NCBI RefSeq assembly: GCF_003334255.1
Contig: NZ_QOWU01000031.1
DNA from: Escherichia coli
GTDB lineage: Bacteria > Pseudomonadota > Gammaproteobacteria > Enterobacterales > Enterobacteriaceae
Reading direction: 5' to 3' (one strand)
DNA length: 58,190 nt
The notes beneath the pieces were generated by a model. It did no database searches. It was not told where the DNA came from and saw only the letters and a list, made by a program, of their open reading frames with translations. This document shows positions 2-58,092 of this stretch, piece by piece. The translations under genes were made by a program, and so were the position numbers. Position 1 is the stretch's first letter. Each line of letters begins with the position of its first letter.

Positions 2-898
2 TGGCTTGCGCAGTGCGGGCTGACGGTGGAGCAACTGGCCAGACAGGTGGAGCCGGAATACACACCGGCGCGAAAAGCTCATCTTTATCACTGCGACCAC
101 CGGGGACTGCCGCTGGCGCTTATCAGCGAAGACGGCAATACGGCGTGGAGCGCGGAATATGATGAATGGGGCAACCAGCTTAATGAGGAGAACCCGCATC
201 ATGTGTATCAGCCGTACCGTCTGCCAGGGCAGCAGCATGATGAGGAATCAGGGCTGTACTATAACCGTCACCGGTACTACGATCCGTTGCAGGGGCGGTA
301 TATTACTCAGGACCCGATGGGGTTGAAAGGGGGATGGAATTTATATCAGTATCCTTTAAATCCACTACAACAAATTGACCCTATGGGATTATTGCAGACT
401 TGGGATGATGCCAGATCTGGAGCATGTACGGGGGGAGTTTGTGGTGTTCTTTCACGTATAATAGGACCAAGTAAATTTGATAGTACTGCAGATGCTGCGT
501 TAGATGCTTTGAAAGAAACGCAGAATAGATCTCTATGTAATGATATGGAATACTCTGGTATTGTCTGTAAAGATACTAATGGAAAATATTTTGCATCTAA
601 GGCAGAAACTGATAATTTAAGAAAGGAGTCATATCCTCTGAAAAGAAAATGTCCCACAGGTACAGATAGAGTTGCTGCTTATCATACTCACGGTGCAGAT
701 AGTCATGGCGATTATGTTGATGAATTTTTTTCAAGTAGCGATAAAAATCTTGTAAGAAGTAAAGATAATAATCTTGAAGCATTTTATCTCGCAACACCTG
801 ATGGACGATTTGAGGCGCTTAATAATAAAGGAGAATATATTTTTATCAGAAATAGTGTCCCGGGATTGAGTTCAGTATGCATACCGTATCATGATTAA
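2..898 (+). CDS. rhsD: Rhs family protein, 3' portion (5' end upstream of window): conserved Rhs core terminus followed by a variable C-terminal toxin domain
   Basis: Reading frame is open from the window start. Translation contains the Rhs core-end signature (YDEWGNQ...[16 protein letters not shown]...YPLNP...DPMGL) followed by an AT-rich, low-complexity-free tail of about 165 aa. Position next to ybbC/mnmH matches rhsD by K-12 synteny (from memory). Confidence 0.85.
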
Positions 899-937
899 TT
901 TTAGTGCTTTTATTAGTAGGGCCTATAAGGAGATTCA

Positions 938-1306
938 ATGAAATATAGTTCAATATTTTCGATGCTTTCATTTTTTATACTATTTGCCTGTAATGAGACA
1001 GCTGTTTACGGTTCTGATGAAAACATTATTTTTATGAGGTATGTGGAAAAATTACATTTAGATAAATACTCTGTTAAAAATACGGTAAAAACTGAAACAA
1101 TGGCGATACAATTAGCTGAAATATATGTTAGGTATCGCTATGGCGAACGGATTGCAGAAGAAGAAAAACCATATTTAATTACGGAACTACCAGATAGTTG
1201 GGTTGTTGAGGGAGCAAAGTTACCTTATGAAGTTGCGGGTGGTGTATTTATTATAGAAATTAATAAGAAAAATGGATGTGTTTTGAATTTCCTACATAGT
1301 AAATAA
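938..1306 (+). CDS. ybbC: Putative Rhs-CT immunity protein, 122 aa, predicted lipoprotein (signal peptide with L-F-A-C lipobox)
   Basis: 122-aa ORF immediately downstream of the Rhs toxin domain, AT-rich. N-terminus [18 protein letters not shown] has a hydrophobic core and lipobox cysteine. Length and position match K-12 ybbC. Confidence 0.75.
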
Positions 1307-2016
1307 TGCTGGCGCTGATGGATGCGGATGGAAACATTGCGTGGAGCGGGGAGTATGATGAGTGGGGCAACCAGCTGAATGAAGAGAACCCGCATCACCT
1401 GCACCAGCCGTACCGGCTGCCGGGGCAGCAGTATGATAAGGAGTCGGGGCTGTACTACAACCGGAACCGGTACTACGATCCGTTGCAGGGGCGGTATATC
1501 ACTCAGGACCCGATAGGGCTGGAGGGGGGATGGAGTCTGTATGCGTATCCGCTGAATCCGGTGAATGGTATTGATCCATTAGGGTTAAGTCCCGCAGATG
1601 TAGCGCTAATAAGAAGAAAAGATCAACTAAACCATCAAAGAGCATGGGATATATTATCTGATACTTATGAAGATATGAAGAGATTAAATTTAGGTGGGAC
1701 TGATCAATTTTTCCATTGTATGGCATTTTGTCGAGTGTCTAAATTAAATGACGCTGGTGTTAGCCGATCGGCGAAAGGGCTGGGTTATGAAAAAGAGATT
1801 AGAGATTACGGGTTAAATCTGTTCGGTATGTACGGCAGAAAAGTAAAGCTATCCCATTCTGAAATGATTGAAGATAATAAAAAAGACTTGGCTGTAAATG
1901 ACCATGGGTTGACATGTCCATCAACAACAGATTGCTCAGATAGATGTAGTGATTATATTAATCCAGAGCATAAAAAAACGATAAAGGCTTTACAAGATGC
2001 TGGCTATCTCAAGTAA
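1306..2016 (+). CDS. ylbH: Orphan Rhs C-terminal module: about 80 aa of Rhs core-end homology followed by a distinct toxin-like domain; may be silent or pseudogenic
   Basis: Begins at a TAATG stop/start overlap with ybbC. The N-terminal 80 aa repeat the Rhs core end ([11 protein letters not shown]...DPIGL...DPLGL), then an unrelated AT-rich tail follows. This is the classic orphan rhs-CT arrangement. Confidence 0.7.
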
Positions 2017-2233
2017 TCTATCAAAGATGATAATATTTATTTTTGCTATTATAATCATTGTTGTTTTATGCGTAATTACTTATCTTTATTTATACAAAGA
2101 TGAATCTCTTGTAAGTAAACATTACATAAACTATATGGCAATACCAGAAAATGATGGAGTTTTTACATGGCTCCCAGATTTTTTTTCCGCACGTAGCGGT
2201 GGATATATCAATATACACAAATGTAGAAGATGA
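1997..2233 (+). CDS. ybbD: Small membrane protein, candidate immunity protein for the orphan Rhs-CT (more likely start at the internal Met near 2027)
   Basis: ORF directly after the orphan toxin module, with one strongly hydrophobic N-terminal helix ([23 protein letters not shown]). AT-rich. Gene name is by position only. Confidence 0.4.
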
Positions 2234-3002
2234 TTATTTTTTTCTTATTTTTCCCTAACAAATGATGATGGGGGTAGGTTTAAGAAAACATTGACAGTGA
2301 GGGCCAGGGAACAAGTGGCGAAAATCGTATCAAAGAATGATCCAGATACAAAAAAAGTGTGGTGTAAATATGGTAAGATACCAGGGCAAGGGGATGGTGT
2401 AAACCTTTTTTTTGTTGGTGAAATTAATGTTACGCATTATTTTATAACAAATATTGGAGCTGGATTGCCTGATGCTTGTGCAGAGTAATTGCTTGAATTA
2501 AGAGTCTATCCCATATCGAAGTCGTCAACTTCGTAGTGAGGAAAAGTAAAATTCCTGACTGAGAAAAGACATGTCGGCTATTGTGTAAAGCCATATAGCT
2601 CAGACGATGAATATCTACTCGTATTCAGTTGTTTATTGAGGGTGAGTTCCGACCCTGAAACAACAAATAAAATGAACAGTCAGAGAGTTTACATAGAATT
2701 GCACTGGTCTTTTACGATATCTGACATTGTGTAATACATATTCAGCCATGCATTAATTAAAATGTTACGTGTTTAATGTGAGTCCCTATCTGAAAATAAA
2801 TAATCCTTCCGGATTAAAATAAATTCTTGCCGGGAAAGAAAGAGGAAATAAACCATTAGCGGAAAACCAGCGGCACGCCAGGGTGACATGCCCCAGTACG
2901 GCGGCCCGATAGTCCAGGGTTCAGCGGGGGTACTGATAGTCGCGCCGACTGCATCGAGAACTCCATACAACTTTTTACGGAACGTCACCTGATAAAATTT
3001 GT

Positions 3003-3410
3003 TCAGTATCGTCTTTTGAGATTCTCAAGGTTATGGAGTAACCAGACAGAACGGACACCACTGTCGGAGATAAAAACCCCCTGTTTACGCAGCTCGTTGC
3101 TGGCCCGGTGCTGACCATGTGTCGGGAAAGCGACGGCGTAATCAACAACAGCCTGTTCAGTTGCCTCATCGGTACGGTTCTTAAGGTTAGGAGCGCGGCG
3201 ACTACGATTAATCTGCGCATCCACACCGCCTTCAGCGACCAGTTCGCGGTAACGATAAAACGTATCACGCGAAACGCCCATGATTTTACAGGCTTTTGAT
3301 ACGTTGCTGAGTTCTTCAGCCAGATTGAGCAAACCGGCTTTGTGTTTGATGACGGGATTGGCAGTATGAAGCATGAGAGTTACCTCTTGTTTTGGATAAG
3401 GATTCGACAC
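3003..3410 (-). pseudogene. ylbG: Transposase-like N-terminal (HTH) fragment, truncated; catalytic domain absent
   Basis: 135-aa ORF with an HTH-like segment (ACKIMGVSRDTFYRYRELVAEGG) typical of IS transposase N-termini. It ends without any DDE/integrase domain, and the downstream frames are broken. Position between the Rhs island and mnmH matches the K-12 ylbG pseudogene (from memory). Confidence 0.5.
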
Positions 3411-3489
3411 TCATATCAAAACCGGTAACTCTCAACCTTTCAAGGCCATGTGTCAGATCAAGTCGCGACTAATACAAATACGTCCCTCA

Positions 3490-4599
<1,110 letters not shown>

Positions 4600-16391: not shown

Positions 16392-16550
16392 CCCTTACCT
16401 TTAAAGCGGATGCGATTTATATCGCATAAGAGTGCAGTACTCATGCCGGATGCGGCATGAGTACCATATCCTTCCTGAAAATCGCGCAAATTCTATATAT
16501 TGCAGAGATCATGTAGGCCTGATAAGCGAAGCGCATCAGGCAATGTTACA

Positions 16551-16576
16551 AAAAAAGCCACGGTATAAACCGTGGC
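16551..16576 (-). terminator. Rho-independent terminator of the allD-allC-allE operon
   Basis: On the minus strand: hairpin GCCACGGT-TTAT-ACCGTGGC followed by TTTTTT, about 45 nt downstream of the allE stop. Confidence 0.65.
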
Positions 16577-16618
16577 AAAATCCAACATAGCTAAAAATAA
16601 TCAGGCGAGTGGTATGAC

Positions 16619-57496: not shown

Positions 57497-57840
57497 TTAT
57501 GTTGGCGTTTTCTATTCAGTATAGAAGTCGGAGCGGCTGGGCGAGATGCGGAAGTTCTGGAATGTTTCTTTTTTTTGGTGATGGTGAACTGATGGTGCCT
57601 GAAGCAATTTGGCTACTTTTGCAATGTGACAAGTTATGGCAGTGCTGACTGGTGGCGAAGAATTTTGACGATTGAGTCATGCAGAAAAAAACGGGTTCAG
57701 CTTCAGTTGATTAAATGAGGAGTGAGAAGTCCGAAACAGGACTCACTGTATAAATAAACAGCTATTTTGTTGAGGAAGGGTAAGATAACGGCGGGTGCCT
57801 GAAGCTTTCCGGTTTCAGGTTTACTCTGAGGTCTGGAAAG

Positions 57841-58092
57841 ATGAAGCCCCAGGAGATATTTCTATCAACCCTGGGGCTGCCACTCCAAACCCGAACAATT
57901 TGGATGGTAGTCCCTTCTTCGCATGGAGGCAATATAAACATGCTGACGAAATATGCCCTTGCGGCAGTCATAGTGCTGTGTTTAACGGTGCTGGGATTTA
58001 CGCTTCTGGTCGGAGACTCGCTGTGTGAGTTTACGGTGAAGGAACGTAATATTGAGTTTAAGGCTGTTCTCGCTTACGAACCGAAGAAGTAG
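57841..58092 (+). CDS. mokE: mok-type overlapping leader frame of the hokE locus (modulator of killing)
   Basis: 83-aa frame that contains the whole hokE frame at its 3' end, which is the arrangement of hok/mok loci. Confidence 0.5.
57940..58092 (+). CDS. hokE: Hok-family type I toxin, 50-aa membrane peptide
   Basis: [50 protein letters not shown]: one TM helix plus the conserved Hok C-terminal region with Cys. Located next to ybdK as in K-12. Confidence 0.9.

What the first reader, a model, noticed from the sequence alone, without database searches (positions are those of the whole stretch)
2234..3002. AT-rich unassigned stretch after the Rhs cassettes with a 65-aa ORF and decayed frames
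About 770 bp between the last Rhs-associated ORF and the transposase remnant have no confident gene. The 65-aa ORF at 2291-2488 has no recognisable motif. The region may hold further decayed orphan-toxin or immunity fragments, or a small regulatory RNA.
Basis: seen in the sequence. Interest (0 to 1): 0.3.

Follow-up and report, generated by a model that had tools for sequence, protein, structure and literature searches.

The report
Decayed ybbD immunity gene and Rhs stub
The "unassigned" stretch is the already annotated tail of the E. coli RhsD element: a frameshifted immunity gene (ybbD), a silent spacer, the first 32 codons of a lost Rhs gene (ylbI) and the edge of a broken IS481 element, so it is ordinary and known.

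Summary
The window is the E. coli rhsD–selU–allS region. Bases 2234-3002 are not unassigned. In K-12 MG1655 they carry the annotated pseudogenes ybbD (b0501) and ylbI (b4632) and abut ylbG (b0502).

The 65-aa ORF at 2291-2488 is residues 99-163 of the 163-aa YbbD family (NCBIfam NF011298, Pfam PF26610 YbbD_head). The "last Rhs-associated ORF" (1997-2233) is the N-terminus of the same gene. The window's ybbD differs from an intact allele (strain E2865) by exactly two single-T indels: +T at 2179-2186 and -T at 2237-2243.

YbbD homologues follow the same serum-amyloid-A-like Rhs C-terminal toxin in three other diverged loci. It is therefore most likely that toxin's immunity protein, here orphaned and inactivated.

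- 2489-2854 is a 366-bp AT-rich spacer. It has no Rfam match, no unusual fold and no conserved ORF.
- 2855-2950 is the first 32 codons of an Rhs gene (ATG→ATT, 63% GC).
- 2950-3018 is an internal piece of an internally deleted IS481-family transposase gene.

Published data report H-NS/StpA binding over ybbC-rhsH-ybbD and use of the ybbD–ylbG interval as a landing pad. Already known, low interest.

The parts
1997..2488 (+). ybbD pseudogene (K-12 b0501). It is a YbbD-family (NF011298 / PF26610 YbbD_head) putative immunity gene of the upstream orphan Rhs C-terminal toxin ylbH/rhsH, and overlaps that gene's 3' end by 20 nt.
   Evidence: K-12 annotation places ybbD at 528640-529130. The repaired translation matches NF011298 over 1-163/163 at 379.6 bits, above the cutoff of 326. 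It is identical to the intact 163-aa CDS WP_000879785.1 of strain E2865 except for two 1-nt indels.
1997..2233 (+). N-terminal ybbD ORF as encoded here (78 aa). It contains the hydrophobic membrane anchor (residues about 11-33) and is correct up to residue about 63, then runs out of frame to a TGA stop.
   Evidence: ORF list; alignment with intact homologues.
2179..2186 (+). Poly-T tract 1: T8 here, T7 in the intact allele and in K-12. This is a +1 frameshift.
2237..2243 (+). Poly-T tract 2: T7 here and in K-12, T8 in the intact allele. This -1 frameshift restores the original frame, but only after the stop at 2231-2233.
2291..2488 (+). PGAP calls a 57-aa version from GTG 2315.
   Evidence: NF011298 positions 99-163, E 3.5e-42; alignment; PGAP annotation of the 100%-identical strain 63-2.
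2406..2413 (+). Poly-T tract 3 (T8). It is in frame here and is the site where the 149-aa variant leaves the family reading frame in other strains.
   Evidence: The 149-aa variant P0002 diverges from the family sequence at this point.
2489..2854 (.). 366-bp AT-rich (35.5% GC) non-coding spacer between ybbD and ylbI. It is nearly invariant among the roughly 2750 E. coli genomes that carry it.
   Evidence: Homology to diverged toxin-ybbD modules ends at 2501. No Rfam hit and no fold signal.
2522..2552 (+). Promoter-like TCGTCA-19-TAAAAT, listed for the ybbD>ylbI spacer in an in vitro RpoD-holoenzyme genomic SELEX screen.
   Evidence: PMC3946193. The motif was located by reading the sequence. It was not picked up by the consensus scan.
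2624..2808 (.). 185-bp stretch with an 86%-identical paralogue in a vgrG/ISEc1/ydcC (rhsE-type) locus of about 81 genomes. That copy ends about 8 bp before an H-repeat (ISAs1-family) copy begins. There is no conserved ORF on either strand.
   Evidence: (H28).
2855..2950 (+). ylbI pseudogene (K-12 b4632): the first 32 codons of an Rhs core gene (ISGKPAARQGDMPQYGGPIVQGSAGVLIVAPT). The start codon is ATG→ATT, a Shine-Dalgarno-like AGAGGA lies upstream, and GC is 63.5%.
   Evidence: NF041261 RHS_core positions 1-33, E 4e-12. Alignment to an intact Rhs start, MSGKPAARQGDMTQYGGPIVQGSAGVRIGAPT.
2950..3018 (-). Internal 3'-region fragment of an IS481-family transposase gene. It is joined to ylbI on one side and, across a 467-bp internal deletion (junction 3014-3018), to the 5' part of the same transposase gene on the other.
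   Evidence: BLAST against intact IS481-family copies L008 and L009.
3003..3374 (-). ylbG (K-12 b0502): ORF for the helix-turn-helix N-terminal part of the IS481-family transposase. The IS remnant extends to about 3476-3491.
   Evidence: NF033577 transpos_IS481 positions 2-112/284 at 89.9 bits, below the cutoff of 224..

Best explanation
The interval is the decaying distal end of the E. coli RhsD element, and every base is accounted for.

(1) 2234-2488 is the rest of ybbD. This 163-codon gene starts at 1997 and overlaps the stop of the orphan Rhs toxin fragment ylbH/rhsH. In this strain two single-T slips in homopolymer tracts (T8 at 2179-2186, T7 at 2237-2243) put 50 nt out of frame and create a stop at 2231-2233. 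The most conserved 'head' motif of the family lies in this stretch. The 65-aa ORF is therefore just the in-frame tail of a dead gene.

Intact YbbD is predicted to be a membrane-anchored protein, and some homologues carry lipoprotein-like L-x-x-C signals (my reading of the alignment). Its roughly 125-residue alpha/beta domain carries a conserved cysteine pair. By conserved gene order it is inferred to be the immunity protein that neutralises the serum-amyloid-A-like C-terminal toxin domain carried by ylbH. In EHEC-type strains the main RhsD protein carries that same toxin domain. The cysteine pair and the anchor suggest it acts on the periplasmic side.

(2) 2489-2854 is a non-coding spacer. The adjacent ybbC-rhsH-ybbD genes are H-NS/StpA-bound in published ChIP-exo data.

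(3) 2855-2950 is the 5' stub of a second Rhs gene (ylbI). Its body was lost in a deletion that also removed the end of an IS481-family element (2950 onward, ylbG).

Shown: identities, frameshifts, junctions, synteny. Inferred: the immunity function, its periplasmic site of action, and lack of present-day function.
For: Locus identity and annotation:
- Searches give rhsD, ybbC, ylbH, ybbD, ylbI, ylbG, selU and allS in this order.

Family membership:
- The repaired YbbD scores 379.6 bits full length on NF011298 (cutoff 326), and the 65-aa ORF matches positions 99-163.
- Homologues carry PF26610 YbbD_head.

Frame repair:
- Homologues at 50-70% identity keep 'FFPxxAxxISIYTN(V/I)ExxYF(F/Y)SYF' across the stretch that is out of frame here.
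- The window differs from the intact E2865 allele by exactly +T and -T over 492 nt.

Toxin-immunity pairing:
- In three diverged loci a YbbD homologue (70%, 50% and 38% identity) directly follows a homologue of the ylbH toxin domain (87%, 80% and 59% identity), in the closer two with the same 20-nt overlap.
- In E2865 the ORF just upstream of intact ybbD overlaps it by the same 20 nt and adjoins the main Rhs core pseudogene. Homology of that ORF to the ylbH domain is inferred and from PMC7216683, not tested directly.

Toxin domain:
- Weak Pfam SAA hit, E 0.0013.
- A published model of EDL933 RhsD-CT on serum amyloid A1 (PMC7216683).

YbbD model:
- pLDDT 90.9.
- C123 is invariant across the 8-sequence alignment.
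- C161 is nearly invariant, and lipobox-like leaders are visible in the homologues.

ylbI. IS481 junctions.

Silencing and dispensability:
- H-NS/StpA ChIP-exo over ybbC-rhsH-ybbD (PMC9948719).
- The ybbD-ylbG interval used as an engineered landing pad in MG1655 (10.1101/2020.01.04.894907).
Against: - No experiment shows that YbbD neutralises the ylbH-type toxin; the pairing is by synteny only.
- One YbbD_head homologue lies in a non-Rhs context (glgP-glpD region). There its upstream gene is unrelated to the toxin, so the family is not exclusively Rhs-linked.
- A TraDIS study found the first ORF of K-12 ybbD free of insertions and suggested it might still matter (10.1101/237842). A later study attributes this to H-NS/StpA protection.
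- An in vitro RNA polymerase SELEX peak exists in the spacer, so some transcription cannot be excluded.
Confidence: 0.88

Rival explanations
1. The 65-aa ORF (or the 57-aa GTG-2315 version that PGAP calls) is an independently expressed small protein that has been exapted from the tail of ybbD.
For: PGAP annotates WP_001297301.1 (57 aa) as a non-pseudo CDS in K-12-like genomes and in the 100%-identical strain 63-2. The ORF is intact in most strains.
Against: - The starts are TTG or GTG with poorly placed Shine-Dalgarno-like purines: GGTAGG is 12 nt before the TTG and AGGGA is 4 nt before the GTG (sequence).
- The peptide is simply residues 99-163 (or 107-163) of a 163-aa domain. It lacks the membrane anchor, the conserved head motif and part of the predicted sheet.
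- ORF length is within chance for this composition.
- The upstream genes ybbC-rhsH-ybbD are H-NS/StpA-bound.
Confidence: 0.04
2. The spacer 2489-2854 encodes a small regulatory RNA or a functional promoter/leader. The 185-bp stretch conserved in two Rhs-type loci would be the candidate element.
For: - RpoD-holoenzyme SELEX peak with TCGTCA-19-TAAAAT at 2522-2552.
- A paralogue of 2624-2808 at 86% identity, with a nearly identical core of about 90 nt, in another Rhs-type locus.
- The spacer is at least 99% identical in about 2690 genomes.
Against: - No Rfam match at E<=1.
- Folding z-scores of -0.71 and -0.09.
- No excess of promoter-like or terminator-like sites.
- The spacer-core 24-mer was not found in other species' representative genomes.
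- The downstream gene it would serve (ylbI) is a 32-codon stub without a start codon.
- High identity is expected for recently shared DNA within one species.
- The interval tolerates insertion of an engineered landing pad.
Confidence: 0.06
3. ybbD is not simply dead but is switched on and off by slipped-strand changes in its three T7/T8 tracts, giving phase-variable immunity. Alternatively it is read through by ribosomal frameshifting on the T runs.
For: All four combinations of tract 1 and tract 2 lengths occur among 2571 genomes: T7/T7 1605, T7/T8 (in frame) 379, T8/T8 130, T8/T7 48. This needs recurrent slippage or recombination. The window allele is exactly two slips from an intact gene, with no other change in 492 nt. 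A third tract also varies.
Against: - Runs of 7-8 T are short for classical contingency loci.
- The commonest allele is out of frame.
- Some length calls may be homopolymer sequencing errors.
- K-12 lacks a T6SS (my knowledge, not checked here) and the locus is H-NS-bound, so selection for switching is doubtful.
- AT-rich genes accumulate such tracts by composition alone.
Confidence: 0.07

Closest known systems
E. coli K-12 ybbD (b0501) pseudogene / YbbD family (NCBIfam NF011298, Pfam PF26610 YbbD_head)
   Same: Same locus, same gene and same neighbours. The sequence is 99.9% identical to K-12 over 2000-3100. The repaired protein is identical to the intact WP_000879785.1.
   Different: K-12 carries T7/T7 (one frameshift, 86-aa first ORF). 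This window carries T8/T7 (two compensating frameshifts, 78-aa first ORF), a minority allele found in 48 of 2571 genomes.
Orphan Rhs toxin-immunity modules created by C-terminal displacement (for example the Salmonella Typhimurium main plus orphan rhs, PMC7043789; the Rhs element architecture of E. coli)
   Same: An Rhs core-end fragment (TIGR03696) is followed by an AT-rich C-terminal toxin domain and an overlapping small downstream gene, placed after the main rhsD-ybbC pair. The same toxin domain is carried by the main RhsD protein in EHEC EDL933 (PMC7216683).
   Different: Here the immunity partner is frameshifted, and the orphan toxin has no delivery domain. No activity has been shown for either.
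E. coli K-12 ylbI (b4632) and ylbG (b0502)
   Same: Same coordinates relative to selU. ylbI is the Rhs N-terminal stub and ylbG is the IS481-family helix-turn-helix fragment.
   Different: Nothing material. This analysis adds the junction details: ATG→ATT, the ylbI/IS junction at about 2950, and a 467-bp internal IS deletion at 3014-3018.
YdcD (RhsE-associated downstream protein, PDB 8wj5)

Membership tests
YbbD family (NF011298 / PF26610 YbbD_head) | Full-length match to the 163-position family model above the curated cutoff (326 bits) | tested here: met
   The repaired translation (one T removed at 2179-2186, one T added at 2237-2243) scores 379.6 bits over 1-163/163. As encoded, the 65-aa ORF alone scores 144.5 bits over positions 99-163, so it is a fragment of a member.
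YbbD family (NF011298 / PF26610 YbbD_head) | Uninterrupted reading frame, that is, a functional member | tested here: not met
   Two 1-nt indels relative to the intact E2865 allele give a stop at 2231-2233. The gene is annotated as a pseudogene in K-12 and in the identical strain 63-2.
YbbD family (NF011298 / PF26610 YbbD_head) | Conserved head motif (IPxxxGVxTWLPxFFP...N.D.N.F) and conserved Cys pair | tested here: met
In the window the segment following FFP is out of frame.
Rhs toxin-immunity pair (immunity protein of an Rhs C-terminal toxin) | Gene lies immediately downstream of, or overlapping, the toxin-encoding 3' end, and this is conserved across diverged loci | tested here: met
   There is a 20-nt overlap with ylbH here, and the same overlap in L012 and L015. 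L017 is adjacent. The toxin domains are 87%, 80% and 59% identical, while the YbbD homologues are 70%, 50% and 38% identical.
Rhs toxin-immunity pair (immunity protein of an Rhs C-terminal toxin) | Protein neutralises its cognate toxin | not testable with these tools
   This needs co-expression or competition assays.
Rhs core gene (NF041261 RHS_core), for 2855-2950 (ylbI) | N-terminal MSGKPAARQGDM... segment | tested here: met
   Match to model positions 1-33, E 4e-12. 82% DNA identity to an intact Rhs start.
Rhs core gene (NF041261 RHS_core), for 2855-2950 (ylbI) | Start codon and full-length core (about 1260 positions, cutoff 2000 bits) | tested here: not met
   ATT replaces ATG. Homology ends at 2950 after 32 codons, and the score is 44.8 bits.
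IS481-family insertion sequence, for 2950-3491 | Complete transposase with catalytic domain | tested here: not met
   Only model positions 2-112/284 are matched, at 89.9 bits against a cutoff of 224. There is a 467-bp internal deletion and the 3' end is missing.
Known small RNA families (Rfam 15) | Covariance-model match within 2234-3002 | tested here: not met
   No match at E<=1 in 1800-3600 other than psRNA2, which lies at 3377-3548, is below threshold, and is outside the finding.

The most novel reading that the evidence does not exclude
The three T7/T8 homopolymer tracts in ybbD might act as slippage switches, so that E. coli populations toggle an orphan Rhs immunity gene between dead and live states. 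All four combinations of the first two tracts exist in nature, and the window allele is exactly two slips from intact. A second possibility is that the 185-bp stretch shared with an rhsE-type locus is a functional Rhs-associated non-coding element.
Probability: 0.08. Interest if true: 0.4.

Novelty: already known. Interest (0 to 1): 0.1.

Why it matters
It matters little beyond tidy annotation. The result shows that an apparently empty 770 bp is fully explained by three known pseudogene remnants of the RhsD element.

It also shows why automated callers report several 'hypothetical proteins' here: they are fragments of one frameshifted gene.

The modest added value is threefold:
- An exact description of the two compensating poly-T frameshifts and their population frequencies.
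- Synteny evidence pairing YbbD with the serum-amyloid-A-like Rhs toxin domain.
- The junction map of the ylbI and IS481 remnants.

If the YbbD/SAA-like toxin pair were tested, it would add one more Rhs effector-immunity pair, probably acting in the periplasm.

Tried and rejected
- Rfam search of 1800-3600 at E<=1 found nothing inside the finding.
- RNA folding of 2620-2830 on both strands gave z-scores of -0.71 and -0.09.
- The promoter/terminator scan found 3 and 2 sites against 4.9 and 1.7 expected.
- Pfam-A scan of repaired YbbD gave no significant domain; the copy used lacks, or did not report, PF26610.
- PADLOC gave no hit for YbbD or for the DFL.5 neighbour protein.
- An exact 24-mer from the conserved spacer core, scanned against 100,044 species-representative genomes, gave one hit. 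That hit is an E. coli-like contig binned as 'Alistipes', so there is no evidence for the element outside E. coli.
- I looked for the spacer paralogue in the K-12 rhsE locus; it is absent.
- I tested whether the protein upstream of the non-Rhs YbbD_head homologue (L018) resembles the toxin; it does not.
- The minus-strand 71-aa ORF at 2773-2988 has no family hit and is antisense to the GC-rich ylbI and IS pieces, so it was rejected as a gene.
- The ORF-length chance test showed that length alone is uninformative.

Full report
**Locus.** The first 6 kb of the window match the E. coli rhsD–selU(mnmH)–allS region. A megablast of 2000-3100 found the segment in 3039 of 5426 complete E. coli genomes. 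It is 100% identical to strain 63-2 and 99.9% identical to K-12 MG1655.

The curated K-12 record NC_000913.3 lists these features in order:
- rhsD
- ybbC
- pseudogene ylbH (b0499)
- pseudogene ybbD (b0501, 528640-529130)
- pseudogene ylbI (b4632, 529497-529592)
- ylbG (b0502)
- selU
- allS

In window coordinates these map as follows:

| Feature | Window coordinates | Strand |
|---|---|---|
| ylbH | 1306-2016 | + |
| ybbD | 1997-2488 | + |
| ylbI | 2855-2950 | + |
| ylbG | 3003-3374 | - |
| selU | 3490-4584 | - |

The finding's interval (2234-3002) is therefore already annotated territory.

**Checking the observation.** The 65-aa TTG ORF at 2291-2488 is real. The interval is 39.4% GC against 50.9% for the window. 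It is a mosaic, however:
- 36% GC in the ybbD part.
- 35.5% GC in the spacer.
- 63.5% GC in ylbI.

An open stretch as long as the one containing the ORF arises in 29% of base shuffles. Length alone therefore says nothing.

**The 65-aa ORF is the tail of ybbD.** Six-frame translation and alignment with three other strains show two poly-T tracts whose lengths differ among strains: 2179-2186 and 2237-2243. Removing one T from the first and adding one to the second gives a 163-aa protein.
- It matches NCBIfam NF011298 end to end at 379.6 bits (cutoff 326). The 65-aa ORF alone covers model positions 99-163.
- Database homologues carry Pfam PF26610 'YbbD_head'.
- Homologues at 70% and 50% identity keep the sequence across the stretch that is out of frame in the window. 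This validates the repair.
- Strain E2865 has an intact 163-aa CDS, WP_000879785.1. Over 492 nt the window differs from it only by +T at tract 1 and -T at tract 2. The next 532 nt are identical.

So ORF 1997-2233 (78 aa) and ORF 2291-2488 are two pieces of one gene. The start of the 65-aa ORF has no well-placed Shine-Dalgarno sequence.

**Allele frequencies.** Exact-match 94-96-nt probes spanning both tracts were searched against the genomes that carry the segment (2571 genomes).

| Tract 1 / tract 2 | Genomes | Note |
|---|---|---|
| T7/T7 | 1605 | K-12 type |
| T7/T8 | 379 | in frame |
| T8/T8 | 130 | |
| T8/T7 | 48 | this window |

The remaining genomes differ by SNPs. A third tract (2406-2413) is where the common 149-aa variant leaves the family frame. 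All four combinations exist, which implies recurrent slippage, recombination or some homopolymer sequencing error. I could not resolve which.

**What YbbD is.** The gene overlaps the 3' end of ylbH by 20 nt.

ylbH has an Rhs-associated core end (TIGR03696). It is followed by an AT-rich C-terminal domain with a weak serum-amyloid-A match:
- Pfam SAA, E 0.0013.
- PDB 7zh7, E 0.31.
- The main RhsD of EHEC EDL933 has been modelled on SAA1 (PMC7216683).

In three diverged loci with different flanking genes, a YbbD homologue directly follows a homologue of this toxin domain.

| Locus | YbbD homologue identity | Toxin domain identity |
|---|---|---|
| L015 | 70% | 87% |
| L012 | 50% | 80% |
| L017 | 38% | 59% |

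This conserved pairing is the basis for calling YbbD the cognate immunity protein. It is an inference, not an experiment.

The family is small. Only 48 cluster representatives among 1.84 billion reach E<=0.001, and many of those are fragments of the frameshifted E. coli gene.

A 24-sequence alignment shows:
- A hydrophobic N-terminus. It reads as a signal anchor in E. coli and as lipobox-like L-x-x-C leaders in several homologues (my reading).
- The invariant WLP..FP head motif.
- Two conserved cysteines: C123, invariant in the 8-sequence alignment, and C161, nearly invariant.

Together with the cysteine-rich toxin domain, this suggests action on the periplasmic side (inference).

One YbbD_head homologue sits in a non-Rhs context with an unrelated upstream gene. 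The family is therefore not exclusively Rhs-linked.

**The spacer, 2489-2854.** Homology to the diverged toxin–ybbD modules stops at 2501, so the spacer belongs to a different segment. It is at least 99% identical in about 2690 E. coli genomes.

A 185-bp part (2624-2808) has an 86% paralogue in a vgrG/ISEc1/ydcC locus of about 81 genomes. That copy ends about 8 bp before an H-repeat copy starts. No ORF is conserved between the two copies (sequence comparison).

Tests for a non-coding function were negative:
- No Rfam match.
- No better-than-shuffle folding.
- No excess of promoter-like or terminator-like sites.
- One exact 24-mer from the spacer core found no copy in other species' representative genomes.

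Published data add four points:
- An in vitro RpoD SELEX peak is listed for ybbD>ylbI, with TCGTCA-19-TAAAAT at 2522-2552 (PMC3946193).
- H-NS and StpA bind ybbC-rhsH-ybbD and block transposon insertion there (PMC9948719).
- That binding explains an earlier TraDIS suggestion that the first ybbD ORF might be essential (10.1101/237842).
- The ybbD–ylbG interval has been used as an engineered landing pad in MG1655 (10.1101/2020.01.04.894907).

**ylbI and the IS remnant.** 2855-2950 encodes ISGKPAARQGDMPQYGGPIVQGSAGVLIVAPT. This matches positions 1-33 of the RHS_core model. It aligns with the start of an intact Rhs gene, with ATT in place of ATG.

BLAST against intact IS481-family copies shows:
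- 3014 to 3476-3491 is the 5' part of the element.
- 2950-3018 is a piece from near the 3' end of the transposase gene.
- 467 bp are deleted between them, with a 5-nt overlap at the junction.
- The outer 3' end of the IS is absent.

The Rhs body was therefore lost in a deletion running from inside the IS into the Rhs gene. It was not lost by a simple insertion.

**Verdict.** Every base of the finding is explained by known, annotated remnants of the RhsD element.
- 'No recognisable motif' is wrong.
- The small-RNA option is unsupported.

Novelty: already known. Interest: low.

Noticed in passing
window 3377-3548 (+): Sub-threshold Rfam match to psRNA2 (RF02349): 31.1 bits against a gathering score of 65, E 2.5e-5. 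It lies over the outer end of the IS481-family remnant and the 3' end of selU. Window 3312-3473 also has matches of about 76% next to betA in many E. coli genomes, which suggests a dispersed IS-end-derived repeat rather than a gene.
   Followed up: partly
window 1306-2016 (ylbH/rhsH): The orphan Rhs C-terminal domain is cysteine-rich and weakly resembles serum amyloid A (Pfam SAA E 0.0013; PDB 7zh7 E 0.31). Across diverged loci it is more conserved (59-87% identity) than its partner YbbD (38-70%).
   Followed up: partly
window 2179-2186, 2237-2243, 2406-2413: All three T7/T8 homopolymer tracts inside ybbD vary in length among E. coli genomes. All four combinations of the first two occur (1605, 379, 130 and 48 genomes). 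Whether this reflects recurrent slippage, recombination or assembly error was not resolved.
   Followed up: partly
window 2624-2808; L005 4001-4185: A 185-bp non-coding stretch has an 86% paralogue, with a nearly identical core of about 90 nt, in a vgrG/ISEc1/ydcC locus of about 81 genomes. That copy ends about 8 bp before an H-repeat (ISAs1-family) copy. It is absent from the K-12 rhsE locus.
   Followed up: partly
L018 4288-5423 (metagenome contig, glgP-glpD region): A YbbD_head homologue (140 aa, lipoprotein-like leader) lies in a non-Rhs context, after a 493-aa PBP-like protein and an unrelated 238-aa protein. The domain is therefore not restricted to Rhs immunity modules.
   Followed up: partly
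window 16478-16612 (+), 36254-36330 (+), 57793-57948 (+): Rfam gathering-level hits elsewhere in the window: ES036 and STnc480 sRNAs side by side at 16478-16612, tRNA-Arg(TCT) at 36254-36330, and a sok antitoxin RNA (hok/sok locus) at 57793-57948.
   Followed up: no
L007 (CASFSC010000074.1): A 3995-bp contig deposited in an 'uncultured Alistipes sp.' metagenome bin is 99.5% identical to window 127-4123. It is an E. coli contig that was mis-binned.
   Followed up: yes
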